From positions 1 through 46,410 of the IMG/VR virus record IMGVR_UViG_2721755497_000002: a stretch of DNA of 46,410 bases. One strand, written 5' to 3'. A program made the translations under genes and the position numbers. Position 1 is the stretch's first letter; each line of letters opens with the position of its first letter. Under the pieces are notes generated by a model. It did no database searches and was not told the DNA's origin. It saw only the letters and a list, made by a program, of their open reading frames with translations. The stretch is from a virus. Its lineage: Duplodnaviria; Heunggongvirae; Uroviricota; Caudoviricetes. Positions 982 to 24,105 of the stretch are shown piece after piece.

Positions 982-1063
982 AAATTCAATCACTTACACA
1001 TCATTAAGTCAGTGACAAAAATCACACTTGGAATTACTTGGAATATTTTCTTGGAATATTTTC
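982..1063. repeat. attL candidate: tRNA 3' flank with tandem direct repeats (CTTGGAAT x3, including TTGGAATATTTTC x2) overlapping the int 3' end; possible arm-type Int binding sites
   Basis: Direct repeats visible at about 1027-1063, immediately between the tRNA and the integrase stop codon. Confidence 0.3.
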
Positions 1064-2059
1064 AGGTAACGGGACATCAAGTGTTGGTGAAACTTTAACC
1101 TTCCTGTCATAGATTAGCACTTGCCCTTCGGTTTTGTGACCAGAGAAAAGTTGCTTATCCCGGCTGCTTCCTTCATAGTCTGAAATTCCTTTCGCCTTCA
1201 GATCATGAAAGGTGAAGTCGGATAAAATACCTGAAATTTTTCCAGCACGATTTCTTGCTTCTACCCACATTTCGTTAAAGCCTTTGTACATATATCGGTT
1301 GCCGTATTGATTGCTGATCACATAGGCAGATTTTGGTAACTGTTTTGCTTTTTCGATCGCTGCCTGTAATCGTGGACTCCATGCTTTTATCTGTTTTTTT
1401 CCGGTTTTCCCTTGCTGGATGAATATCCCGTCGTTTCCAATCTGTTCCCATTTCAGCGATAACACATCGGAAACCCTCGCTGCACACAGATAGGCAATTT
1501 CCATTGCGATAAAAACAGGAAGAGGTGCAACGCTTAATACTGCCTGGTATTCTTTGTCGGTTACATATCGTTCGCGGTTTTTGGCCTTGAATTTACTTAC
1601 ACCTGCACATGGGTTAGCCTTGACGTACCCTCGCTCATACCCCCAACTGTAAACACGGGACATACTGCTTTTTTCATGGTTGGCTTGCGTTTTACTCTGC
1701 TCCCCTCTTTTGTCCATGTATCGACGGATGTGTTCTGGTTTTATGGAATCCGCTGGTACCTTACCGAATACGGCAAGCAACTTTTTTTGATGTTGCAGAT
1801 AATCTTTTTGTGTTCTTGGACTAAGGTCACTGTAATAGGCGCTGGCGAGGAATTTTTCCCACAAGCGACCGAATGTCATTGCACGATCGCGATTATTTAC
1901 AGTTTCCTCATACTTTTTCCATAAAGCAGCTAAACCATCCTTGATGGCGGTTAGTGTGACAGATTCTCTGGATGTTGGTTTCCATACATAACTATATTTA
2001 TTTGGGTATACATTTGGAGGTAATTTTTCGTGTTCAGGATTTTTCCTTCGTCTTCCCAT
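1034..2059 (-). CDS. int: Tyrosine integrase, lambda Int family
   Basis: 341-aa ORF; N-terminus MGRRRK...LPPN resembles lambda Int; directly adjacent to the tRNA integration site. Confidence 0.9.
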   Translation of the reverse strand: MGRRRKNPEHEKLPPNVYPNKYSYVWKPTSRESVTLTAIKDGLAALWKKYEETVNNRDRAMTFGRLWEKFLASAYYSDLSPRTQKDYLQHQKKLLAVFGKVPADSIKPEHIRRYMDKRGEQSKTQANHEKSSMSRVYSWGYERGYVKANPCAGVSKFKAKNRERYVTDKEYQAVLSVAPLPVFIAMEIAYLCAARVSDVLSLKWEQIGNDGIFIQQGKTGKKQIKAWSPRLQAAIEKAKQLPKSAYVISNQYGNRYMYKGFNEMWVEARNRAGKISGILSDFTFHDLKAKGISDYEGSSRDKQLFSGHKTEGQVLIYDRKVKVSPTLDVPLPENIPRKYSK

Positions 2060-15747: not shown

Positions 15748-16125
15748 ATGACTGAACGCATAGAATTTGTTTTGCCTTACCCGCCGACGGTGAATACCTA
15801 CTGGCGACGTCATGGCAATACGTATTTCATCTCGGAGGCCGGAAAGCGTTATCGCCGTGATGTGGCGCTAATTGTTCGCCAGCAGCGGCTGAAATTAAAC
15901 CTGTCCGGAAGGCTGGCAATAAAAATTACTGCAGAGCCGCCGGATAAGCGCCGTCGGGACCTGGACAATATCCTGAAAGCACCGCTGGATGCACTGACGC
16001 ATGCGGGGCTTCTCATAGACGACGAGCAGTTTGATGAAATCAATATTGTGCGCGGTCAGCTCGTTCCTGGTGGGCGACTGGGCGTGAAGATTTGCGAAAT
16101 CAGAGGTGATGGTAATGGGGCGTGA
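15748..16125 (+). CDS. rusA: RusA Holliday junction resolvase
   Basis: 125 aa; motifs PPTVNTYWR and RRRDLDN...LDAL...AG match the RusA family. Confidence 0.85.
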   Translation: MTERIEFVLPYPPTVNTYWRRHGNTYFISEAGKRYRRDVALIVRQQRLKLNLSGRLAIKITAEPPDKRRRDLDNILKAPLDALTHAGLLIDDEQFDEINIVRGQLVPGGRLGVKICEIRGDGNGA

Positions 16126-16465
16126 TATGTATGAGGTTTTAGATCGCTGGGGGGCATGGGCTGCAGCAGAAAATAGCGGTGTCGATTGGCAACCGATAGC
16201 AGCGGGCTTCAAGGGGCTTTTGCCACATGGCAAAAAGTCACGTCTCCAGTGTGATGATGATGAAGGCATCATGATAGACGGTTGTGTGGCTCGGTTGCGA
16301 AAGTATAAACCAGAGGAATATGAGCTGCTCATAGCTCACTTTGTTATTGGTGTTTCTCTACGCTCAATCGCGAAGAAACGCAGGTGCTCAGATGGAACTA
16401 TAAGAAAGGAGCTGCAAACTGCATTAGGCTTTATTGATGGATGTATATGCTTGATTCTATCATAA
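16115..16465 (+). CDS. Late antiterminator Q (QuuD / phage 82 Q family)
   Basis: ORF 16106..16465; LDRWGAWAA...IAAGFKGL...RLQCDDDEG...DGCVARL resembles QuuD; likely start ATG 16115 after GAGGTGA. Confidence 0.75.
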   Translation: MGRDMYEVLDRWGAWAAAENSGVDWQPIAAGFKGLLPHGKKSRLQCDDDEGIMIDGCVARLRKYKPEEYELLIAHFVIGVSLRSIAKKRRCSDGTIRKELQTALGFIDGCICLILS

Positions 16466-16478
16466 GTTATGACTGTTA

Positions 16479-16865
16479 CTACTCGTTTGCTTGAGCTTTC
16501 GATTCGGCGTCAGATAAAGCATCAATACGAATATTTATGTTTTTTAATAGCTTATTGTCTAGATCGATAAGACATTGGTTGTAGTGCGCAATTTGGTCTG
16601 GTGTTAGGTTAGGGTTGGCCAGGCAGTTCGTGATGAATTTTCTGGCCGTTTTTATTTCCCTTTTCATTCTTACATCATTAAGCGTAGGCAAACCTATGTA
16701 AGCGATAAGAAGAATTACCACATGAGATAAGCCGACAGCAGCTCCAGGCGCCAATGATTTGAAGAAGGCTAATTGAGGAAGCCAGTCAAAAAGGAAATTC
16801 AATCCCGCAGTGATAAGGGTGGTAAACCATGCCTGCATTGCCAGGTAGGATTTAGTGTTCGCCAT
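16479..16865 (-). CDS. Uncharacterised membrane protein (cargo gene 3 of 3), two predicted TM helices plus helical C-terminus
   Basis: 128-aa ORF; hydrophobic segments WFTTLITAGLNFLF and VGLSHVVILLIAYIGL; start abuts stop of upstream gene; convergent with Q, 13-bp gap. Confidence 0.6.
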   Translation of the reverse strand: MANTKSYLAMQAWFTTLITAGLNFLFDWLPQLAFFKSLAPGAAVGLSHVVILLIAYIGLPTLNDVRMKREIKTARKFITNCLANPNLTPDQIAHYNQCLIDLDNKLLKNINIRIDALSDAESKAQANE

Positions 16866-17111
16866 TCACCTTCCTGCACTTGCTTCGTTGCGAGTTTTGA
16901 GTTCGCGTAGCAGTAGCGCCAACTCTTCTGCGTCATTTTCGTTTCTAACGCTGACTTTCCTTTTAGCGGTTCTGCCTTCAGGATCGGTGTAGGTTAGTTC
17001 AATATACGCATTCGGCTTTACCCAAACCAAGAACCTAAGCACAGCATATCTGACCGTCGCTGCGACAGCCATGAATACAGTGATGTAAAGCATAATGCTT
17101 AGGATTGACAT
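16866..17111 (-). CDS. Uncharacterised small membrane protein (cargo gene 2 of 3), one N-terminal TM helix
   Basis: 81-aa ORF; ILSIMLYITVFMAVAATV hydrophobic segment; translationally coupled to neighbours. Confidence 0.6.
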   Translation of the reverse strand: MSILSIMLYITVFMAVAATVRYAVLRFLVWVKPNAYIELTYTDPEGRTAKRKVSVRNENDAEELALLLRELKTRNEASAGR

Positions 17112-17114
17112 GAT

Positions 17115-18026
17115 TTAAAGTAGTTTCCTATCTGCCGCCGCTCTGTGGCGTATAACCTTAGTAATACTATAGCGTGGTTTAGACAGCGCGCCATTTGTTT
17201 CTTTTGTTGTTTCTGTCAGTTCTACAACAAAAAGATCACCCTTACAGAATGCTGCTTGGTTGTGTTCAACCCGTTCAAGAAAAGCCTCATCTTTCATAGA
17301 TGCGCTAACTTCTTCGCCATTTGGCAGGATGATATCCCAGCTTTTGCCTTGCTTGAATCGAACATTAGCAAAATGTACATTAGCTTGGCGTGTCGTTACG
17401 TGCGTTTTCTCGACAAAGGTGGATTTTGCAGTTTTAAAACTTACTGCTTCAGCTTGCGTCACCCTGACTACCTTATGCTTCTGCTGTGAAACTGAGAACG
17501 TGGATGGTTTTTCAGTCTGCAGGGGTTTATAGATTAATTTATCCAGTTCTTTTCGGATGATTGGACTGGTTATTAATTTTTGAATGTCGTTACTGCATTT
17601 AACCTTCTCACCATCCACTTCGATTTCTGCTGTATCTTTTTGTTCATCGACGACAATGGAGCTGATTTTACGCCCTTTGAGCCATTCGATTATCCCGAGT
17701 ACGCCACCTGCGGCAACTCCACCACCTGCAACGAGGCCAAGGGCGTTAATAGTTTTTATGCTCCCCATCACAGCAACAAGCAAAGTAAATGAACCTTCTT
17801 TTGTTGCCTTGATGTTGACTTTCGGCTCTGCTGTTTCGCCATTAATTATTTTTTCGGCGTGTTCAATCAGGGCACTAAGAGAGGTTAAGGCTTCGCCTAA
17901 TGTTTTCGCGTCGATCTGATTATCTGCGTATGCCTCTCCACCGTAGGCAATTTCGATTTCTGTTATTGGCATGTTTTCGAGTTGCTGCGTCATCAAAAGC
18001 ATCCTTTGCGCAAGAGAAATAGCCAC
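17115..18026 (-). CDS. Uncharacterised protein (cargo gene 1 of 3) with central Gly/Ala-rich hydrophobic segment
   Basis: 303-aa ORF (track start is GTG; probable true start ATG at 17993 after AAGGA, giving 292 aa); hydrophobic LLVAVMGSIKTINALGLVAGGGVAAGGVLGII; no recognisable catalytic motif. Confidence 0.6.
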   Translation of the reverse strand: MAISLAQRMLLMTQQLENMPITEIEIAYGGEAYADNQIDAKTLGEALTSLSALIEHAEKIINGETAEPKVNIKATKEGSFTLLVAVMGSIKTINALGLVAGGGVAAGGVLGIIEWLKGRKISSIVVDEQKDTAEIEVDGEKVKCSNDIQKLITSPIIRKELDKLIYKPLQTEKPSTFSVSQQKHKVVRVTQAEAVSFKTAKSTFVEKTHVTTRQANVHFANVRFKQGKSWDIILPNGEEVSASMKDEAFLERVEHNQAAFCKGDLFVVELTETTKETNGALSKPRYSITKVIRHRAAADRKLL

Positions 18027-18115
18027 AGGATACAGATAATTATGAAAAAATCACTAACGCGTACGCAAAAACTATCTTAATCTGTTAAGAGTGGTCGCTT
18101 CGCCACACAACTTAA

Positions 18116-18140
18116 ACCCGCATCAAGCGGTTTTTTTTGT
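18116..18140 (+). terminator. Weak intrinsic terminator (CCGCatcaaGCGG + T8) upstream of the tRNA cluster; possible tR'
   Basis: Short GC stem followed by eight T residues on the plus strand. Confidence 0.35.
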
Positions 18141-18243
18141 GCCACTTATCTCGGATAGACATGGTGAATGCGCTGGTGGAGGAGATAAGGGTGATTTTTG
18201 AATGCTTGCAACATTGATTTCGTAACGTTATTATCCTGCGCCC

Positions 18244-18319
18244 GGCCCTTTAGCTCAGTGGTGAGAGCGAGCGACTCATAATCGCCAGGTCGCTGGTTCA
18301 AATCCAGCAAGGGCCACCA
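18244..18319 (+). tRNA. tRNA with CAU anticodon (Met or lysidine-dependent Ile2; ileZ-like phage tRNA)
   Basis: 76 nt GGCCCTTTAGCTCAGTGGTGAGAGC...ACTCATAATCG...GGTTCAAATCCAGCAAGGGCCACCA; canonical cloverleaf. Confidence 0.8.
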
Positions 18320-18326
18320 TCTCATA

Positions 18327-18403
18327 CCGCCATTAGCTCATCGGGACAGAGCGCCAGCCTTCGAAGCTGGCGGCGCGGGGTTCGGGTCCTCGATGGCGGT
18401 CCA
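18327..18403 (+). tRNA. tRNA-Arg, anticodon UCG (argN-like phage tRNA)
   Basis: 77 nt; acceptor CCGCCAT/ATGGCGG, anticodon loop CTTCGAA, T-arm CGGGG-TTCGGGT-CCTCG, CCA end. Confidence 0.75.
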
Positions 18404-18416
18404 TTATCTGCACCAT

Positions 18417-18490
18417 GCGGTCATCGTATAATGGCTATTGCATCAGCCTTCCTGGCTGATTATGCGGGGCAATTCCCGCTGACCGCTCCA
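18417..18490 (+). tRNA. tRNA-like element, argO-like but degenerate (non-canonical anticodon loop CTTCCTG and shortened T-loop GCAATT)
   Basis: Acceptor GCGGTCA/TGACCGC with CCA end; anticodon and T-loops deviate from consensus; may be a pseudo-tRNA. Confidence 0.4.
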
Positions 18491-18675
18491 TAGTGGATTA
18501 TGGGTACTGTATGTTAAGCATTTTTCTTCGTTACCCTTCATCGGTAAAAAAGCGTACAACAACTATTTATGCTGCCATTAGCGATGATAGTATAGTTACT
18601 GGTTCTTTCGTAGTGTGTTTATTTGTTTGCTATATTTTTATCGATAATTGACATTCTTCAGATGGGGATGAATAA

Positions 18676-19104
18676 ATGTATTGCCGTGGTTTGCCAGTTC
18701 TTGTTTTGATATTCGCCTGCCTGGCAGCAGGCTGCACAAAAGATGTATCAACAAATTATCATGATAGTGCGCCATATCACGCAGGTGAATTAACAAAGGT
18801 TAAGAATGTTAATCCATCTGAAAGTACTGCTGATGTTAGTGAAGACATTCGTCATTATGCCGGTCAAATCAAAAAAGCCATTGAAGAACAGTTCAGGGAA
18901 CCGGGTAAGTATTCCGGGAAAGTGTGTTCACTGAGAATGAATATGGCTCCGAATGGTCTTCTGTTGCAGGTTAAAAGAGAAGGTGGAGACCCCGATTTAT
19001 GTCGTGAAGCGATGAATGCGGTGAAGCATGCTGATATACCAGCACCGCCGTCTCCGGAAGTATATAAAGTATTTCACAATGGAGTGCTGGATTTTAAACC
19101 GTGA
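18676..19104 (+). CDS. Lipoprotein carrying a TolA C-terminal (domain III)-like domain
   Basis: 142 aa; signal peptide with lipobox LAAGC; C-terminal 85 aa (YAGQIKKAIEEQF...GKVCSLRMNMAPNGLLLQVKREGGDPDLC...IPAPPSPEVYKVFHNGVLDFKP) closely parallels E. coli TolA domain III as recalled. Confidence 0.7.
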   Translation: MYCRGLPVLVLIFACLAAGCTKDVSTNYHDSAPYHAGELTKVKNVNPSESTADVSEDIRHYAGQIKKAIEEQFREPGKYSGKVCSLRMNMAPNGLLLQVKREGGDPDLCREAMNAVKHADIPAPPSPEVYKVFHNGVLDFKP

Positions 19105-19304
19105 TTCTACATCTTTGCAGTAAACAATAATCATAATTGCATGTTTTTTCTGTGGTGGGGCATTTGGCTTCTGTTGCCTGCGATGTATTGTGGACCTGGT
19201 ATCAGCCTGCAGAAAATGCACACAGGTGTGAAGTGTTAAATTCCTCACAACTCAGAACGCAGAATGTTGTCCTGCTTGCGGGGAATTTGTTAAAAGAGTA
19301 CAGC

Positions 19305-19423
19305 ATGGTGAATCCCCCTGAGCGGAGGGGCATAATGACAGATGTTTGGTCGTGTTATCGTATAGGCAAGTTGCGGATTCTGTCTGGTCATTGCAGAATT
19401 CACCGGGAGGCACCCGGCACCAT
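19305..19423. repeat. Repeat unit copy 1 (about 119 bp): ATGGTGAATCCCCCTGAGCGGAGGGGC ... CACCGGGAGGCACCCGGCACCAT with two GC-rich hairpins
   Basis: Termini shared with copy 2 and mutually reverse-complementary (ATGGTG / CACCAT). Confidence 0.45.
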
Positions 19424-19558
19424 GTATTTTCAATATGTTATTGATCATTCTCTTTTTCGGAATACTCTGGTTATGTTTTCCTGTAACTGATAATTAAATC
19501 ACATTTTGTGTAACTGCATATTGTCTGAACGGGATAAGTTTCAGTATCTTCTGAATGT

Positions 19559-19678
19559 ATGGCGAATCCCCCTGTGCGGCGGGGCGTACTGATTTAAGTA
19601 GTCATCCAAGAATGCAGCTGAATGAAAACGCGCTCCATATTAATCAGTGGTGGAGCACCGGGAGGCACCCGGCGCCAT
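19559..19678. repeat. Repeat unit copy 2 (about 120 bp): ATGGCGAATCCCCCTGTGCGGCGGGGC ... CACCGGGAGGCACCCGGCGCCAT
   Basis: Same terminal hairpin modules as copy 1, divergent interior. Confidence 0.45.
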
Positions 19679-19707
19679 ACCGATGATGAAAGTAAATGCG
19701 TCCATCC

Positions 19708-19732
19708 GCCCCTCTCCGGAGGGGCTTTTTTA
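19708..19732 (+). terminator. Strong rho-independent terminator (GCCCCTCtccgGAGGGGC + TTTTTT) upstream of nanS-p
   Basis: 7-bp GC stem, 4-nt loop, T-tract. Confidence 0.6.
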
Positions 19733-19913
19733 TGGGCAAAAAAAGCCCGCTACGAATGGTAACGGGCTGCACAAAATAACAAAATGTGAAGTATTCTAAT
19801 CAGCCGCTGAATAATACCCGACAGTAATTAATCTGTGCAACGGTGCTTTTTCCCGCCTTGCAGGCACCGACTCTCTCATTTGATTTAACGCATTATCCCG
19901 TCCGGGAGGATTC

Positions 19914-21857
19914 ATGACATTTAAATATTATGATGTGGTTTCGGCCAGAACAACTGATGAATTAAAGCGGAAACTGAACGAAAAAATCCGTGAAGGATGG
20001 CAGCCTTATGGAACAATATCTGTTTCATCTGTGAGTGGTACTGAAGACATATATCATCAGCCAGTTGCTGCTGAGGGGGAGGTGAGTACGCCGGTGATAC
20101 GTCCTGATGCCGGTGATGATTCATCTGTGGCCGTCTCCGGATCGCCTGATTATTACTACGTGGTGGTACTGGCGGGGCAGTCAAATGGCATGGCCTATGG
20201 TGAAGGGTTTCCGTTACCGGATTCATTTGACCGCCCGGACCCACGGATTAAGCAACTGGCACGCCGCAGCACGGTCACGCCAGGTGGTACGCCGTGTAAA
20301 TACAATGACATCATTCCGGCAGACCACTGCCTGCATGATGTGCAGGACATGAGCGGGATAAACCACCCAAAAGCTGACCTGAACAAGGGGCAGTATGGTT
20401 GTGTGAGTCAGGGGCTGCATATTGCCAAAAAACTGCTGCCTTATATCCCGCAGAATGCCGGGATACTTCTGGTGCCCTGTTGCCGTGGCGGGTCAGCATT
20501 CACCACCGGGCCGGACGGTTCATTCAGTGAGGCCAGCGGTGCTTCCGCTGATTCTTCACGCTGGGGAGTCGGTAAACCTCTGTATCAGGACCTGGTAAGC
20601 CGCACCAAAGTCGCGCTGGCGAAGAACCCGAAAAACAAACTTCTGGCTGTGGTCTGGATGCAGGGAGAGGCAGACCTTGCATCGGGAAGTCAGCAGCATA
20701 ATGGTTTATTCACTGCCATGGTTCAGCAGTTCAGAGCCGACCTGTCTCCGCTTGCTGCGCAGTGCGTGAGTGGAAATGCTGGCACGGTACCGTGGATTTG
20801 TGGTGATACCACGTATTACTGGAAAAACGCTGGCACCGATAAATATGAGGCGGTATACGGTGGCTACAAAGGCAAGGAAACTCAGAATATTTTCTTTGTA
20901 CCGTTCCTGACGGATGAGAATGGACAGAACACGCCAACGAATGCTCCGACGGAAGATCCGGATATTGTGGCTGTCGGGTATTACGGTGCGGCATCCCGTA
21001 CCCAGGGCAGTTTTGTCTCGACACAGCGTGACAGCCATTTCAGTTCATGGGCACGCAGGGGCATCATTTCTGACCGTCTGGCCTCCTCTATTCTGCTCCA
21101 TGCAGGGCGCACGGCTGAACTGCTGGGCGGGCAGGCCGTGACACCACCGGATGAGAAGCCATCACCTGACACTCCATCAACATCACCGGGTGAAACTACC
21201 GGGATGACAACACTGTTTGCATACAGGGCCAGCGATTCGGAAGGACAACTGACTCCACAGGGCTGGGGGGCTGGCGGAGGTAGTGCCGCTGTTGTGGATG
21301 ATGCCGGAGCCAGTGGAGGTAAGGCGATGAAGCTTACCAAAGCGACGGGAAAATCCTCCTGGTACCTGGAACATGATGCCGGTAATGGTGCCGACCTGCT
21401 GGGCAAAGGCGGCCTTGTCAGTTGTCGTTTTAAACTTGATGGCGCGCTTACGGCTAATCAGTACGCACTGGCGCTGTACTGGCCGGTTTCTGCCCTGCCA
21501 CAAGGGGTTACCCTGGAAGGTAATGCTGGTCATAACCTGCTGGCATCTTTTTACGTTCAGAGCGATGCGACAGACCTTAACGTGATGTACCACAAGGGCG
21601 ATACGGCGCAAAACATGAAACTGGGGTCATTCGGTGCATTTGACAACGAGTGGCATACGTTGGGCTTCCGTTTCGCCGGTAACAACAGTATTGAGGTGAC
21701 GCCGGTCATTGATGGTCAGGACGGGACGCCGTTCATGCTGTCGCAGTTACCTGTCGGTTCTTTTGCGGCAGACAAGTTGCGCGTGACCGATATTACCAGT
21801 GCAGCAACGTATCCGGTGCTGATTGACAGCATAGTGGTGGAAGTGAATAACGCGTAA
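19914..21857 (+). CDS. nanS: NanS-p-type sialate O-acetylesterase (DUF1737 N-domain + SGNH/SASA esterase domain)
   Basis: 647 aa; N-terminus MTFKYYDVVSARTTDELKRKLNEKIREGWQPYGTISVSS (DUF1737-like); GQSN motif (VLAGQSNGMAYGEG); position between tRNAs and lysis genes as in EHEC prophages. Confidence 0.8.
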   Translation: MTFKYYDVVSARTTDELKRKLNEKIREGWQPYGTISVSSVSGTEDIYHQPVAAEGEVSTPVIRPDAGDDSSVAVSGSPDYYYVVVLAGQSNGMAYGEGFPLPDSFDRPDPRIKQLARRSTVTPGGTPCKYNDIIPADHCLHDVQDMSGINHPKADLNKGQYGCVSQGLHIAKKLLPYIPQNAGILLVPCCRGGSAFTTGPDGSFSEASGASADSSRWGVGKPLYQDLVSRTKVALAKNPKNKLLAVVWMQGEADLASGSQQHNGLFTAMVQQFRADLSPLAAQCVSGNAGTVPWICGDTTYYWKNAGTDKYEAVYGGYKGKETQNIFFVPFLTDENGQNTPTNAPTEDPDIVAVGYYGAASRTQGSFVSTQRDSHFSSWARRGIISDRLASSILLHAGRTAELLGGQAVTPPDEKPSPDTPSTSPGETTGMTTLFAYRASDSEGQLTPQGWGAGGGSAAVVDDAGASGGKAMKLTKATGKSSWYLEHDAGNGADLLGKGGLVSCRFKLDGALTANQYALALYWPVSALPQGVTLEGNAGHNLLASFYVQSDATDLNVMYHKGDTAQNMKLGSFGAFDNEWHTLGFRFAGNNSIEVTPVIDGQDGTPFMLSQLPVGSFAADKLRVTDITSAATYPVLIDSIVVEVNNA

Positions 21858-22585: not shown

Positions 22586-22801
22586 ATGTACCAGATGGAA
22601 AAAATCACAACAGGTGTGTCATACACCACGTCTGCGGTGGGGACGGGATACTGGTTTCTGCAGTTGCTGGACAGGGTATCCCCGTCTCAGTGGGCGGCAA
22701 TAGGCGTGCTGGGGAGTCTGCTGTTTGGTCTGCTGACGTACCTGACCAACCTGTATTTTAAAATCAGAGAGGACCGGCGCAAGGCGGCGCGGGGAGAATG
22801 A
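22586..22801 (+). CDS. Holin, phage 21 S21-like pinholin with dual-start motif
   Basis: 71 aa [26 protein letters not shown]...[22 protein letters not shown] resembles S21; GGGAGG Shine-Dalgarno; two Met within first four codons. Confidence 0.8.
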
Positions 22802-22805
22802 ACTG

Positions 22806-23339
22806 GTGAGTAAAAAACTCCGCTACGGTTTATCTGCGATCGTTCTGGCGCTGATTGCCACAGGTGCTTCTGCGCCTGAAATCCTTGACCAGTTTCTGGA
22901 TGAAAAGGAAGGTAACCACACCACGGCATACCGTGATGGCGCGGGTATCTGGACTGTCTGCCGGGGAGCCACTCGGGTGGATGGCAGACCTGTAGTTCCC
23001 GGTATGAAGCTGACGAAGGAAAAATGCGCTCAGGTTAATGCCATTGAACGGGATAAGGCACTGGCATGGGTGGAGAAAAATATCAGAGTGCCACTGACCG
23101 AACCGCAGAAAGCGGGGATAGCGTCATTCTGCCCGTACAACATTGGTCCCGGTAAGTGTTTTCCGTCGACGTTTTATAAACGAATTAATGCAGGTGATCG
23201 AAAAGGTGCCTGTGAGGCGATTCGCTGGTGGATTAAGGATGGTGGCAGAGACTGCCGTATTCGCTCAAACAACTGCTACGGTCAGGTGTCCCGTCGTGAC
23301 CAGGAGAGCGCGCTGGCGTGCTGGGGAATCGACAGATAA
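22806..23339 (+). CDS. SAR endolysin (T4 lysozyme-like muramidase with N-terminal signal-anchor-release domain)
   Basis: 177 aa; GTG start; N-terminal Gly/Ala-rich hydrophobic SAR segment LSAIVLALIATGASA; resembles phage 21 R21. Confidence 0.85.
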   Translation: MSKKLRYGLSAIVLALIATGASAPEILDQFLDEKEGNHTTAYRDGAGIWTVCRGATRVDGRPVVPGMKLTKEKCAQVNAIERDKALAWVEKNIRVPLTEPQKAGIASFCPYNIGPGKCFPSTFYKRINAGDRKGACEAIRWWIKDGGRDCRIRSNNCYGQVSRRDQESALACWGIDR

Positions 23340-23430
23340 GCAGAATATTTTGCTGAAAAATGCCGTTTGCTCACGCGGGTGGATAACACGATATTCTGCG
23401 AACTGGCAAAAGGTAAGTGAATAAAAGTAA

Positions 23431-23462
23431 AAACCCCGTTTGTTGGCTGCAAGCGGGGTTTT
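23431..23462 (+). terminator. Hairpin AAACCCCG...CGGGGTTT with T-tract inside the lysis cassette (candidate terminator/attenuator)
   Basis: GC stem with long loop followed by TTTTG. Confidence 0.35.
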
Positions 23463-23498
23463 GTGTTTCCTGACTCCGGAAAAGTCAAAGGAGAAAGT

Positions 23499-23636
23499 GT
23501 GTTTGATTTTAGCAAACTGATTCGGGAGATTCGAGTGATGGCTGAAAAATTATCCACCTGGAAGTTCATCCTTATCTGGCTGGTGTTTGTGATTATGGCC
23601 TCCGGTTATTTCATCGGTCAGATACGCTGGTGGTGA
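23499..23636 (+). CDS. Possible small membrane protein between endolysin and Rz (45 aa, [45 protein letters not shown])
   Basis: GTG start 5 nt after AGGAG; stop 1 nt before Rz ATG; one predicted TM helix; not in ORF track. Confidence 0.35.
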
Positions 23637-23637
23637 A

Positions 23638-24105
23638 ATGAACCGCGTTCTGTGTGTGATCATCATTGCCCTGCTGGTGGCCTGTGGTGTGCTGTGGGTG
23701 GCAACAGACTATTACCGCGATAATGCCATCACCTACAAGGCGCAGCGCGATAAAAAAGCCAGGGAGCTGCGGCTGGCAAACGCAACCATTACTGACATGC
23801 AGCAGCGTCAGCGTGATGTTGCTGCACTCGATGCAAAATACACAAAGGAGTTAGCCGATGCGAGAGCTGAAAATGAAACTCTGCGCGTTGATGTTGCCGC
23901 TGGTCGTAAGCGCCTGCGGGTCAACGCCACCTGTGTGTCCGCCACAGACAAAAACACCAGAACCGCCAGCGTGGATAATGCAGCCCGCCCCAGACTGGCA
24001 GACGCCGCTGAACGGAATTATTTCACTCTCAGCGACCGGCTGATGACGATGCAGAAGCAGCTGGAAGGGGCGCAGGAATATATCCGCGCTCAGTGCCTGA
24101 AATAA
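23638..24105 (+). CDS. Rz i-spanin
   Basis: 155 aa; N-terminal TM helix, coiled-coil-rich periplasmic domain; Rz1 embedded in +1 frame. Confidence 0.8.
23873..24043 (+). CDS. Rz1 o-spanin lipoprotein (embedded in Rz)
   Basis: Internal Met of ORF 23858..24043: [32 protein letters not shown]... lipobox VVSAC, proline-rich. Confidence 0.7.

What the first reader, a model, noticed from the sequence alone, without database searches (positions are those of the whole stretch)
18676..19104. Phage lipoprotein mimicking TolA domain III in the position Stx phages use for stx
The 142-aa product has a lipoprotein signal peptide (lipobox LAAGC, no Asp at +2, so probably outer-membrane sorted). Its last 85 residues parallel the C-terminal domain III of host TolA nearly residue for residue in conserved blocks (YAGQIK.AIE, GK.C.LR...AP.G.LL..K.EGGDP.LC, IP.PPS..VY.VF.N..LDFKP). 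TolA domain III contacts Pal/TolB/CpoB and is the import handle for group A colicins and filamentous phage pIII. A membrane-anchored decoy could block Tol-dependent entry or modulate envelope integrity during lysogeny. The gene has its own AT-rich upstream region and sits between the tRNAs and nanS-p.
Basis: partly seen in the sequence, partly recalled or inferred. Interest (0 to 1): 0.75.

Follow-up and report, generated by a model that had tools for sequence, protein, structure and literature searches.

The report
Prophage lipoprotein copy of TolA's tip
A lambdoid prophage of E. coli carries, in the slot where Shiga-toxin phages carry stx, a small lipoprotein that is just the C-terminal "hook" domain of the host envelope protein TolA; it most likely acts as an uncoupled decoy against colicins and filamentous phages that enter through TolA, and uncharacterised relatives turn out to be common on colicin and conjugative plasmids.

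Summary
ORF 18676-19104 (+) encodes 142 aa in three parts: a signal peptide with a lipobox (Cys20, Thr at +2), a 32-residue predicted-disordered linker, and a complete TolA C-terminal domain. That domain scores Pfam PF06519 E=2e-23. It aligns without gaps to E. coli TolA 332-421 (E~6e-29, 55% identity) and superposes at TM 0.96 on PDB 2x9a_B.

The disulfide cysteines and the terminal strand LDFKP, which binds TolB, colicin N and phage g3p, are identical. TolA domains I and II are absent, so the protein cannot couple to TolQR. PGAP's name "TolA" is therefore an over-annotation.

The gene lies between the Q/tRNA block and nanS-p. The same flanks bracket stx2AB in an Stx2d phage.

Homologues occur in at least 907 of 5,426 complete E. 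coli genomes and 60 IMG/VR contigs. More distant lipidated TolAIII-only proteins sit on small colicin plasmids and on IncF/IncI plasmids. One is pO157 L7092, which has been detected by proteomics.

Ten literature searches found no functional study. Best reading (about 0.5): an outer-membrane-tethered decoy for Tol-dependent colicins and filamentous phages. Main rival: a late-expressed Tol-Pal inhibitor that aids lysis. Expression timing and function remain untested.

The parts
18676..19104 (+). CDS of the 142-aa TolAIII-only lipoprotein (stop codon included)
   Evidence: ORF list; Pfam PF06519; PDB TolA domain III E~6e-29; PHROG 5772, function unknown; annotated WP_053265055.1 'TolA' in E. coli M3
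18676..18735 (+). Signal peptide plus lipobox, residues 1-20 (LAAG-Cys20); +2 Thr, +3 Lys
   Evidence: Sequence; lipobox rule; Gly19-Cys20 invariant in the family while Cys15 is not; pLDDT <50
18736..18831 (+). Linker or tether, residues 21-52, predicted disordered
   Evidence: pLDDT <50 for residues 18-49; fastest-evolving part, dN 0.07-0.38 against 0.02-0.12 in the domain
18832..19101 (+). TolA domain III homologue, residues 53-142 (= TolA 332-421); disulfide Cys84/Cys109; terminal strand LDFKP
   Evidence: Gapless alignment; pLDDT >90 with helix/strand order as in TolAIII; Foldseek 2x9a_B TM 0.96, rmsd 0.6 A; residue map
18490..18675 (+). AT-rich (33% G+C) upstream region with GGGGA Shine-Dalgarno at 18664-18668; possible extended -10 TGcTATATT at 18628-18636 (unsupported)
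   Evidence: Composition; sequence; the consensus promoter scan found nothing convincing here; only about 50 bp upstream is shared with the AR_0017 variant and none with the mEp460 type
18244..18490 (+). Context: three phage tRNA genes (CAT 'Ile2/Met', Arg-TCG, and a third that only PGAP and Rfam call)
   Evidence: ARAGORN; PGAP; Rfam tRNA hits
19274..19737 (+). Context: two tandem STnc100 sRNA copies (19274-19478, 19529-19737); the second ends in a terminator-like hairpin at 19708-19725
   Evidence: Rfam RF02076, 118.9 and 98.5 bits against gathering 47; repeats; terminator scan
19914..21857 (+). Context: nanS-p type sialate O-acetylesterase
   Evidence: Pfam SASA + DUF6645 + DUF1737; nanS-p lies downstream of stx in 933W (PMC8065619)
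16115..16465 (+). Context: antiterminator Q gene; a 111-bp Q remnant lies at 18091-18201
   Evidence: PGAP annotation of the identical M3 region, window = locus - 1601
22586..24105 (+). Context: lysis cassette (holin, lysozyme, Rz-type lysis protein)
   Evidence: PGAP annotation

Best explanation
[quoted passage not shown] It hangs there on a flexible tether of about 32 residues and displays a folded copy of TolA domain III. That domain is the hub bound by the TolB N-terminus and parasitised by group A colicins (A, N, K, E1 directly; E2-E9 through TolB) and by the g3p N1 domain of filamentous phages.

The protein lacks TolA domains I and II, so it is not coupled to the TolQR motor. Anything that binds it is held non-productively. 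It is therefore most likely a decoy, or competitive inhibitor, that intercepts incoming colicin translocation domains and filamentous-phage g3p just under the outer membrane. This would give the lysogen broad Tol-pathway tolerance. Because invaders bind TolAIII at about 1 uM and TolB at about 40 uM, moderate decoy levels could block invaders while sparing Tol-Pal function.

Shown here: domain composition, homology, predicted fold, conservation of binding strands, purifying selection, position, and distribution on mobile elements. Inferred: lipidation and outer-membrane sorting, ligand binding, protective phenotype, and expression in the lysogen.
For: Homology and fold.

Binding elements. The terminal strand L417-D418-F419-K420-P421 is identical. 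The backbone amides of D418 and K420 are needed for TolB, ColN and g3p binding and for ColA/ColE9 killing (PMC4339652). Y340, I344, I348, F412 and both cysteines are conserved. The ColA box LLDIKP becomes LLQVKR, where the main contacts are backbone. KD is 1 uM for ColN against 40 uM for TolB.

No domains I or II: the NCBIfam TolA models match only their last ~93-109 positions.

Periplasm-targeted recombinant TolAIII perturbs the envelope in vivo.

Selection and conservation: dN/dS in the domain is 0.09-0.51 between variants. The lipobox Cys is invariant.

Family context fits bacteriocin and phage warfare. Lipidated TolAIII-only genes sit on small ColE1/CloDF13-like bacteriocin plasmids, outside the colicin-immunity-lysis operon. 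They also sit on IncF/IncI plasmids whose pili are the receptors of TolA-dependent filamentous phages.

pO157 L7092 is detected in normally growing EHEC at an abundance similar to host TolA, so such proteins can be made constitutively without obvious harm.

A PADLOC defence candidate (PDC-S42) lies 650 bp upstream. A related prophage carries an analogous TonB C-terminal-domain lipoprotein as well.
Against: There is no experimental or expression data for this gene.

It lies inside the Q-dependent late region, so it may be made mainly after induction, when colicin tolerance is of little use. No convincing own promoter or terminator was found.

Identity to host TolAIII is only 55%. The Tyr implicated in TolB binding (Walburger's Y352, here Y353) is Arg or Gly, and the ColA box has three substitutions.

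Some family members are frameshifted and lose the last helix and strand, so the gene is dispensable in some lineages.

PADLOC has no model for it.

A decoy that also binds TolB would be expected to cost envelope integrity.
Confidence: 0.5

Rival explanations
1. Late-expressed Tol-Pal inhibitor. The gene is transcribed with the late operon after induction. The outer-membrane-tethered TolAIII sequesters the TolB N-terminus, so host TolA cannot pull TolB off Pal. This produces a transient tol phenotype (leaky, blebbing outer membrane) that helps lysis and release of virions, periplasmic contents or vesicles.
For: The position is between Q/tRNAs and the lysis cassette, the slot whose cargo (stx, nanS-p) is co-induced with late genes. 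No clear own promoter or terminator was found. Periplasmic TolAIII overproduction makes E. coli release periplasmic proteins. The TolB-binding strand is identical. On Col plasmids a leakier outer membrane could also help colicin release.
Against: On Col plasmids the gene lies outside the SOS-induced colicin-immunity-lysis operon and is divergently oriented. pO157 L7092 is present in ordinarily growing cells. IncI/IncF plasmids have no lysis step. TolB-TolAIII affinity is weak at about 40 uM, so high expression would be needed. Spanins already deal with the outer membrane.
Confidence: 0.22
2. Another envelope-modulating lysogenic-conversion function not centred on invaders. Examples are tuning vesicle production, bile or serum resistance, or division-site Pal dynamics through partial interference with Tol-Pal, analogous to Bor or Lom-type morons.
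For: It sits in a moron-rich locus with low G+C (43% against 52%) next to other host-adaptive cargo: nanS-p, tRNAs and sRNAs. Strains carrying it come from mouse and human gut and from extraintestinal sources. The Tol-Pal review notes that vesiculation could be regulated through TolB interactions.
Against: There is no direct evidence. This reading does not explain the enrichment on bacteriocin plasmids and pilus-encoding plasmids as naturally as the decoy model does.
Confidence: 0.15
3. Non-functional relic: a fragment of a bacterial tolA gene picked up by a phage and drifting, mis-called as a gene.
For: PGAP labels it TolA. Frameshifted variants exist. The prophage integrase is frameshifted.
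Against: The N-terminus is not TolA-derived; it is a conserved signal peptide and lipobox. dN/dS is below 1 in the domain. The position is conserved in hundreds of genomes and 60 viral contigs. At least 47 of 68 short representatives from an exhaustive search carry lipoboxes. The protein is not nested in the E. coli TolA clade, which has 97% bootstrap support and excludes it.
Confidence: 0.03

Closest known systems
E. coli TolA domain III (residues ~332-421; PDB 1TOL, 1S62, 2X9A, 3QDP/3QDR)
   Same: Same Pfam family. Gapless 55% identical alignment, the same predicted alpha/beta fold, the same disulfide and an identical C-terminal strand LDFKP.
   Different: No transmembrane domain I (the TolQR-coupled SHLS anchor) and no helical domain II. 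Anchored instead by a lipid at the N-terminus, probably to the outer rather than the inner membrane. Encoded in a prophage late region rather than the tol-pal operon. Not within the E. coli TolA clade.
Recombinant periplasmic TolAIII (signal-sequence fusions; Levengood-Freyermuth et al. 1993; Wan & Baneyx 1998)
   Same: An isolated TolA domain III delivered to the periplasm and uncoupled from TolQR. It is known to make cells leaky and, from my recollection of the 1993 paper, which I could not read here, tolerant to group A colicins.
   Different: Those are laboratory constructs: soluble, overexpressed and identical to host TolAIII. This is a natural, diverged, lipid-tethered version under selection on mobile elements.
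Phage outer-membrane exclusion lipoproteins Cor (phi80/N15/HK022) and Llp (T5)
   Same: [quoted passage not shown] They block an entry route shared by phages and colicins.
   Different: No sequence relationship. Cor and Llp bind and inactivate the receptor FhuA. This protein copies a host periplasmic hub domain and would act by titrating the invader or TolB, not by plugging a receptor.
Plasmid TolAIII-only lipoproteins: pO157 L7092, and ColRNAI/ColE1-like bacteriocin plasmid 'tolA' (pKP424-7, pMS-37d, pEh65_4)
   Same: Same architecture (signal peptide, lipobox, linker, PF06519 domain with two Cys), 123-143 aa, on mobile elements.
   Different: Only 27-44% identical to the window protein. Carried on plasmids, next to colicin/exc/mob genes or in transfer or leading regions, rather than in a phage late operon. 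Also uncharacterised.
TonB C-terminal-domain lipoprotein of phage 21, Stx1a phages and the AR_0017 prophage
   Same: The analogous design for the other envelope energy transducer: LVMGC lipobox plus a Pfam TonB_C domain, 108 aa, in lambdoid phages. It co-occurs with a tolA-like gene in one prophage.
   Different: Different domain family (TonB_C). Located after the Rz gene. Absent from this window.
stx and other cargo at the Q-tRNA-nanS-p locus of lambdoid phages
   Same: Same insertion slot with homologous flanks.
   Different: Unrelated product. Stx is a secreted AB5 toxin that depends on late transcription and lysis for release.

Membership tests
TolA C-terminal domain (Pfam PF06519 / TolA domain III fold) | Sequence match above the curated threshold | tested here: met
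   83 bits against a cut-off of 25, E=1.8e-23, profile positions 6-96 of 96
TolA C-terminal domain (Pfam PF06519 / TolA domain III fold) | Alpha/beta fold superposable on solved TolAIII, with the conserved disulfide pair | tested here: met
   AF2 pLDDT >90 for residues 50-142. Foldseek 2x9a_B TM 0.96 and rmsd 0.6 A; 3qdr and 3qdp TM 0.85. Cys84/Cys109 = TolA Cys363/Cys388. Caveat: the templates were in AF2 training data.
TolA C-terminal domain (Pfam PF06519 / TolA domain III fold) | Binding of TolB N-terminus, colicin T-domains or g3p N1 by beta-strand augmentation | not testable with these tools
   Only inferred from the identical beta3 strand LDFKP and the conserved alpha2 core
Full-length TolA (cell envelope integrity protein, TolQRA-TolB-Pal system) | N-terminal transmembrane anchor (domain I) that couples to TolQ-TolR | tested here: not met
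   The N-terminus is a cleavable lipoprotein signal. The NCBIfam TolA models align only to their last ~93-109 positions, and PRK09510 scores 111.6 bits against a cut-off of 213.
Full-length TolA (cell envelope integrity protein, TolQRA-TolB-Pal system) | Long helical periplasm-spanning domain II | tested here: not met
   142 aa in total. Residues 21-52 are a short, low-confidence linker.
Full-length TolA (cell envelope integrity protein, TolQRA-TolB-Pal system) | Encoded in the tol-pal operon | tested here: not met
   Lies between phage tRNAs and nanS-p in a lambdoid prophage
Bacterial lipoproteins (Lgt/LspA/Lnt substrates, Lol-sorted) | Signal peptide with lipobox and invariant Cys | tested here: met
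   MYCR + hydrophobic core + LAAG-C20. Passes a PS51257-style rule. Cys20 is invariant in the family. 47 of 68 short relatives have lipoboxes.
Bacterial lipoproteins (Lgt/LspA/Lnt substrates, Lol-sorted) | Outer-membrane sorting (no Asp at +2) | tested here: met
   +2 is Thr. None of the lipobox-bearing relatives has Asp at +2. The actual localisation is not testable here.
Phage superinfection-exclusion lipoproteins (Cor/Llp type) | Sequence or profile homology to Cor or Llp, or membership of a catalogued defence family | tested here: not met
   Only PF06519/TonB_2 in Pfam. PHROG 5772 has unknown function. No PADLOC hit.
Phage superinfection-exclusion lipoproteins (Cor/Llp type) | Confers exclusion of phages or colicins on the lysogen | not testable with these tools
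   Requires sensitivity assays
PHROG 5772 (phage protein family, function unknown) | Profile match over the full length | tested here: met
   E=1.9e-51, residues 7-142 against profile positions 3-128 of 128

The most novel reading that the evidence does not exclude
Mobile elements of Enterobacteriaceae (lambdoid prophages, small colicin plasmids, IncF/IncI conjugative plasmids including pO157) routinely deploy periplasmic copies of the C-terminal domains of the two envelope energy transducers, TolA and, in parallel, TonB. These copies are mostly lipid-tethered and cut off from their motors. They would act as broad-spectrum decoys that make the carrier cell tolerant to whole classes of Tol- or Ton-dependent bacteriocins and phages. 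This would be a general, so far unrecognised 'import-hub decoy' layer of immunity, distinct from receptor masking and from cognate immunity proteins.
Probability: 0.35. Interest if true: 0.85.

Novelty: new variant of a known kind. Interest (0 to 1): 0.68.

Why it matters
Group A colicins and filamentous phages all funnel through TolA domain III. Resistance to them is usually explained by receptor loss, tol mutations (which are costly) or specific immunity proteins. A horizontally transferred, uncoupled copy of the hub domain would be a cheap, dominant and broad tolerance determinant.

Such a determinant would affect colicin-based competition in the gut, the design of colicin and pyocin-like therapeutics, and M13/Ff-based tools. 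It would also explain a gene that PGAP currently mislabels as TolA in about one in six complete E. coli genomes and in more than a thousand plasmids, including pO157 L7092.

If the protein instead inhibits Tol-Pal at lysis, it would be a new accessory step in Gram-negative phage lysis and a natural regulator of vesiculation. Either way it gives a natural probe of TolA-TolB force transduction.

Tried and rejected
- Literature: all ten searches found no paper on natural phage or plasmid TolAIII-only proteins. The two classic papers (PMC196117, PMC1272985) are not held, so the colicin-tolerance phenotype of periplasmic TolAIII rests on my recollection plus indirect citation.
- PADLOC gives no hit for the protein.
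- The promoter and terminator consensus scan is uninformative. It found 5 promoter-like sites against 4.1 expected and none convincingly upstream of the gene. Upstream regions differ between variants, so expression timing could not be settled.
- The search for related loci with the diverse alignment A5 failed for lack of a conserved stretch. A single distant member found only one viral contig.
- Origin of the domain: NJ trees resolve only that the phage group (100%) lies outside the E. coli TolA clade (97%). Deeper nodes have under 55% support. A recent capture from E. coli tolA is rejected; the older origin stays open.
- A TonB-domain lipoprotein was looked for in this window and is absent. 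Its co-occurrence with tolA-like genes could not be measured because the fetched flanks were too short.
- Complex prediction with TolB, ColN or g3p peptides is not possible with the structure tool, which takes single chains from the window only.
- The gene-remnant reading was rejected on selection, conservation and the non-TolA N-terminus.
Full report
**1. What is in the sequence**

The window is a lambdoid prophage. It is 100% identical to one integrated beside tRNA-Ser/mtfA/yeeJ in the mouse E. coli strains M3 and M1.

The ORF at 18676-19104 (+) exists exactly as reported: 142 aa, ATG start, GGGGA 7 nt upstream. Its product has three parts.

- Residues 1-20 are a signal peptide ending in LAAG-Cys20. 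A PROSITE-style lipobox rule is satisfied. That rule can also be read at Cys15, but only Gly19-Cys20 is invariant across relatives, so Cys20 is the lipidation site. The +2 residue is Thr. Under the established "+2 Asp = inner-membrane retention" rule this predicts Lol-dependent sorting to the outer membrane. That is an inference; it was not tested.
- Residues 21-52 have pLDDT below 50 in the AlphaFold model and are the fastest-evolving segment. They form a flexible tether.
- Residues 53-142 are a complete TolA domain III.

**2. The TolA match is real and strong**

- Pfam TolA C-terminal (PF06519) matches at E=1.8e-23, 83 bits against a cut-off of 25.
- phmmer against solved structures gives E. 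coli TolA domain III (3qdp, 1s62, 2x9a, 1tol and the recent full Tol complexes) at E~6e-29. The alignment is gapless, query 53-142 = TolA 332-421, with 50 of 91 residues identical.
- The AlphaFold model has pLDDT above 90 over residues 50-142, with the TolAIII order of helices and strands.
- Foldseek places it on 2x9a_B (TolAIII bound to IF1 g3p) at TM 0.96 and rmsd 0.6 A. Next come 3qdr, 3qdp, 1tol, then Vibrio and Pseudomonas TolAIII and TonB C-terminal domains. These E. coli structures were in the predictor's training data, so the fold result adds little beyond the sequence match.

**3. What is conserved and what is not**

The numbering below was checked against the mutants listed in PMC4339652.

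Conserved:
- The C-terminal strand beta3 (L417 D418 F419 K420 P421) is identical. This strand pairs with the TolB N-terminus, colicin N and g3p-N1. Single D418P or K420P changes abolish all three interactions and give a full tol phenotype.
- Y340, I344 and I348 (alpha2 core), F412, and Cys363/Cys388.

Changed:
- The colicin A box on beta2, LLDIKP(375-380), is LLQVKR. Contacts there are largely backbone.
- The Tyr implicated genetically in TolB binding (Walburger's Y352, here Y353) is Arg in this protein and Gly in the mEp460 type.
- Several surface lysines are replaced. The domain pI is 7.0 against 8.6 for the host domain.

The scaffold and the two strand-augmentation edges are therefore kept, while the surface has diverged.

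**4. It is not TolA**

The NCBIfam full-length TolA models align only through their last ~93-109 positions. PRK09510 fails its cut-off (111.6 against 213 bits), while TIGR02794 passes (79.6 against 59.45), which explains why PGAP names the gene "cell envelope integrity protein TolA".

Domain I (the TolQR-coupled membrane anchor) and domain II (the spanning helix, which is also the CpoB/YbgF site) are absent. The protein therefore cannot transduce force or complement a tolA mutant.

**5. Genomic setting**

The order of features is as follows.

- Q (16115-16465).
- Three minus-strand ORFs. The largest (17115-18026) matches the PADLOC defence candidate PDC-S42 at E=3e-53.
- A 111-bp Q remnant (18091-18201).
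- Three tRNAs (18244-18490).
- A 185-bp region of 33% G+C.
- The TolAIII lipoprotein gene.
- Two tandem STnc100 sRNA copies (19274-19478 and 19529-19737); the second ends in a terminator-like hairpin.
- nanS-p (19914-21857).
- DUF1378, DUF826, holin, lysozyme and Rz.

The same position, after the antiterminator and usually after the tRNAs and before nanS-p or the lysis genes, holds in E. coli AR_0017 and M19, in phage mEp460_ev081, and in a 48%-identical relative on a Logan contig.

In Stx2d phage LC567830 the homologous tRNA block and nanS-p bracket stx2A/stx2B. In all, 287 phage records, mostly Stx2 phages, share these flanks. The "stx slot" statement is correct.

**6. Distribution and evolution**

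- Megablast finds the gene, at 80-92% DNA identity, in 907 of 5,426 complete E. coli genomes. Nearly all copies are chromosomal. This is a lower bound.
- Sixty IMG/VR viral contigs carry close relatives.
- Only one deposited phage genome (mEp460_ev081) has it.
- Between four variants, dN/dS in the domain is 0.09-0.51 and in the linker 0.21-0.89. This indicates purifying selection.
- A few database variants are frameshifted near the C-terminus.
- An exhaustive HMMER search of 1.8 billion representatives found 319 hits. Among the top 150 were 68 short proteins (110-165 aa). At least 47 of these have a lipobox, none has Asp at +2, and a few have ordinary signal peptides.
- In bootstrapped NJ trees the E. 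coli phage group (100%) lies outside the E. coli TolA clade (97%). It groups weakly (52%) with other short lipoproteins, and deeper nodes are unresolved. The domain is not a recent capture from E. coli tolA.

**7. The family is also on plasmids**

tblastn finds TolAIII-like ORFs in 1,316 PLSDB records. This is an upper bound, because a few records are mislabelled chromosomes carrying genuine tolA. A spread sample shows three large groups.

- (a) ColRNAI plasmids of 10-12 kb in Klebsiella, with a cloacin-like bacteriocin, its immunity and lysis genes, and a 123-aa lipoprotein (LLLTAC|K) divergent from that operon.
- (b) ColE1-like plasmids of 6-7 kb in Enterobacter, encoding a pore-forming colicin, with the gene next to exc1, exc2 and mbeD.
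- (c) Large IncF, IncI-gamma/K1 and MOBH plasmids of E. coli, Shigella and Klebsiella, where the gene lies near ssb-psiB-psiA or just after the relaxase.

All of these match PF06519.

The pO157 member is L7092: 143 aa, lipobox VAGC31A, calculated mass 16,108.3 Da against a published 16,107.8-16,108 Da. Shotgun proteomics of EHEC 86-24 detected it at a mean APEX value of 103.5. Host TolA scored 109.6 (PMC3210124 supplement). At least one distant family member is therefore made in ordinarily growing cells at a level comparable to TolA.

**8. Mechanism**

Steps shown here:
- an exported, probably lipidated, isolated TolA domain III;
- the strand used by TolB, ColN and g3p is intact;
- the gene is under selection and sits on mobile elements.

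Established knowledge:
- Group A colicins and Ff/If1 phages need TolAIII.
- Their affinities for TolAIII are far higher than TolB's: about 1 uM for ColN against about 40 uM for TolB.
- Recombinant TolAIII directed to the periplasm causes release of periplasmic proteins.
- From my memory of Levengood-Freyermuth 1993, it also confers tolerance to group A colicins.

Inference: the natural protein is a decoy tethered under the outer membrane, exactly where colicin T-domains and g3p emerge. It binds them without coupling to the proton-motive force, so import stalls. The affinity gap would let moderate levels protect without crippling Tol-Pal.

The plasmid distribution fits this reading. Colicin plasmids take part in colicin warfare, and F and I pili are the primary receptors of TolA-dependent filamentous phages. 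A neighbouring defence candidate is weak corroboration. So is a parallel TonB C-terminal-domain lipoprotein found in a related prophage, phage 21 and Stx1a phages.

I put this reading at about 0.5.

**9. Rivals**

- The main rival (about 0.22) is a late-expressed Tol-Pal inhibitor. Placement in the late region and the known leakiness caused by TolAIII argue for it. It would sequester the TolB N-terminus to loosen the outer membrane at lysis. Against it: the plasmid contexts, the constitutive presence of L7092, and the weak TolB affinity.
- A more diffuse envelope-modulating conversion function gets about 0.15.
- A dead relic is effectively excluded.

Expression timing is the key unknown. Consensus scans found no convincing promoter or terminator, and the upstream sequences differ between variants.

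**10. Novelty and verdict**

The gene is catalogued (PGAP "TolA", PHROG 5772 "unknown function"). Ten full-text searches found no study of natural TolAIII-only proteins on phages or plasmids. The library lacks most subscription journals, so older work may have been missed.

I classify it as a new variant of a known kind: mobile-element envelope-protection lipoproteins, and host-domain mimicry.

Noticed in passing
window 17115-18026 (-), with small ORFs at 16866-17111 (-) and 16479-16865 (-): A 303-aa minus-strand ORF between Q and the tRNAs matches the PADLOC candidate defence family PDC-S42 (E=3e-53). It and its two small neighbours have no Pfam domain. Together they interrupt the Q-to-late-operon path.
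   Followed up: partly
window 19274-19478 and 19529-19737 (+): Two tandem copies of the sRNA family STnc100 (Rfam RF02076, 118.9 and 98.5 bits) lie between the TolAIII gene and nanS-p. They contain repeated hairpins (CACCGGGAGGCACCCGG, CCCCTG.GCGG.GGGG). The same hairpin motif also occurs upstream of the gene in the M19 and mEp460 variants.
   Followed up: partly
window 18417-18490 (+): A third tRNA-like gene is called tRNA-Gly by PGAP and matches Rfam tRNA at 42.8 bits, but ARAGORN does not call it. The first tRNA (anticodon CAT) is called Met by ARAGORN and Ile by PGAP.
   Followed up: no
window 16115-16465 and 18091-18201 (+): An intact 116-aa Q antiterminator and, 1.6 kb downstream, a 111-bp remnant of another antiterminator gene just before the tRNAs. 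A promoter-like TTGCAA-17-TATTAT sits at 18206-18234. This is a mosaic junction, and it is unclear which promoter drives the tRNA/TolAIII block.
   Followed up: no
window 1009-2059 (-): PGAP marks the prophage integrase as frameshifted in the identical M3 genome, so the prophage may be unable to excise.
   Followed up: no
L072 2234-2560 (-) (E. coli AR_0017 prophage); also phage 21 OL657228 41842-42165 and Stx1a phages LC744181-4: A 108-aa lipoprotein (LVMGC|T) consisting of a TonB C-terminal domain (Pfam TonB_C, E=1e-14) sits after the Rz gene in a prophage that also has the tolA-like gene. The same protein is in phage 21, Stx1a-converting phages, JLK-2012 and ev017. It may be a TonB-pathway counterpart of the TolAIII decoy. 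It is absent from this window.
   Followed up: partly
L070 6947-7378 (+) (pO157-type plasmid p611-1): pO157 ORF L7092 is a 143-aa TolA C-terminal-domain lipoprotein located between psiA/hok and toxB. Published proteomics detected it in EHEC 86-24 at an abundance similar to host TolA.
   Followed up: yes
L067 9591-9962; L068 2446-2865; L069 4406-4828: Small bacteriocin plasmids of Klebsiella and Enterobacter (ColRNAI/ColE1-like) each carry a lipidated TolAIII-only gene outside the colicin-immunity-lysis operon. In pMS-37d it follows exc1 and an Exc2-family lipoprotein.
   Followed up: partly
L004 3698-4780 (-) (AR_0017 prophage): A phage-borne OmpC-type porin gene lies between quuD (Q) and the tRNAs, immediately upstream of the tolA-like gene. 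This is another envelope-remodelling cargo gene in the same hotspot.
   Followed up: no
proteins P0020, P0022, P0024, P0027, P0028 (alignment A1): Several database variants of the family carry a frameshift after IPAP(P/L). It replaces the last helix and the LDFKP strand with an unrelated tail. These are presumably inactivated copies.
   Followed up: no
E. coli M3 / M1 genomes (H2, H3): The megablast table reports two places per genome for the 901-bp query in M3 and M1. This suggests a second, different tolA-like copy in another prophage of the same strain.
   Followed up: no
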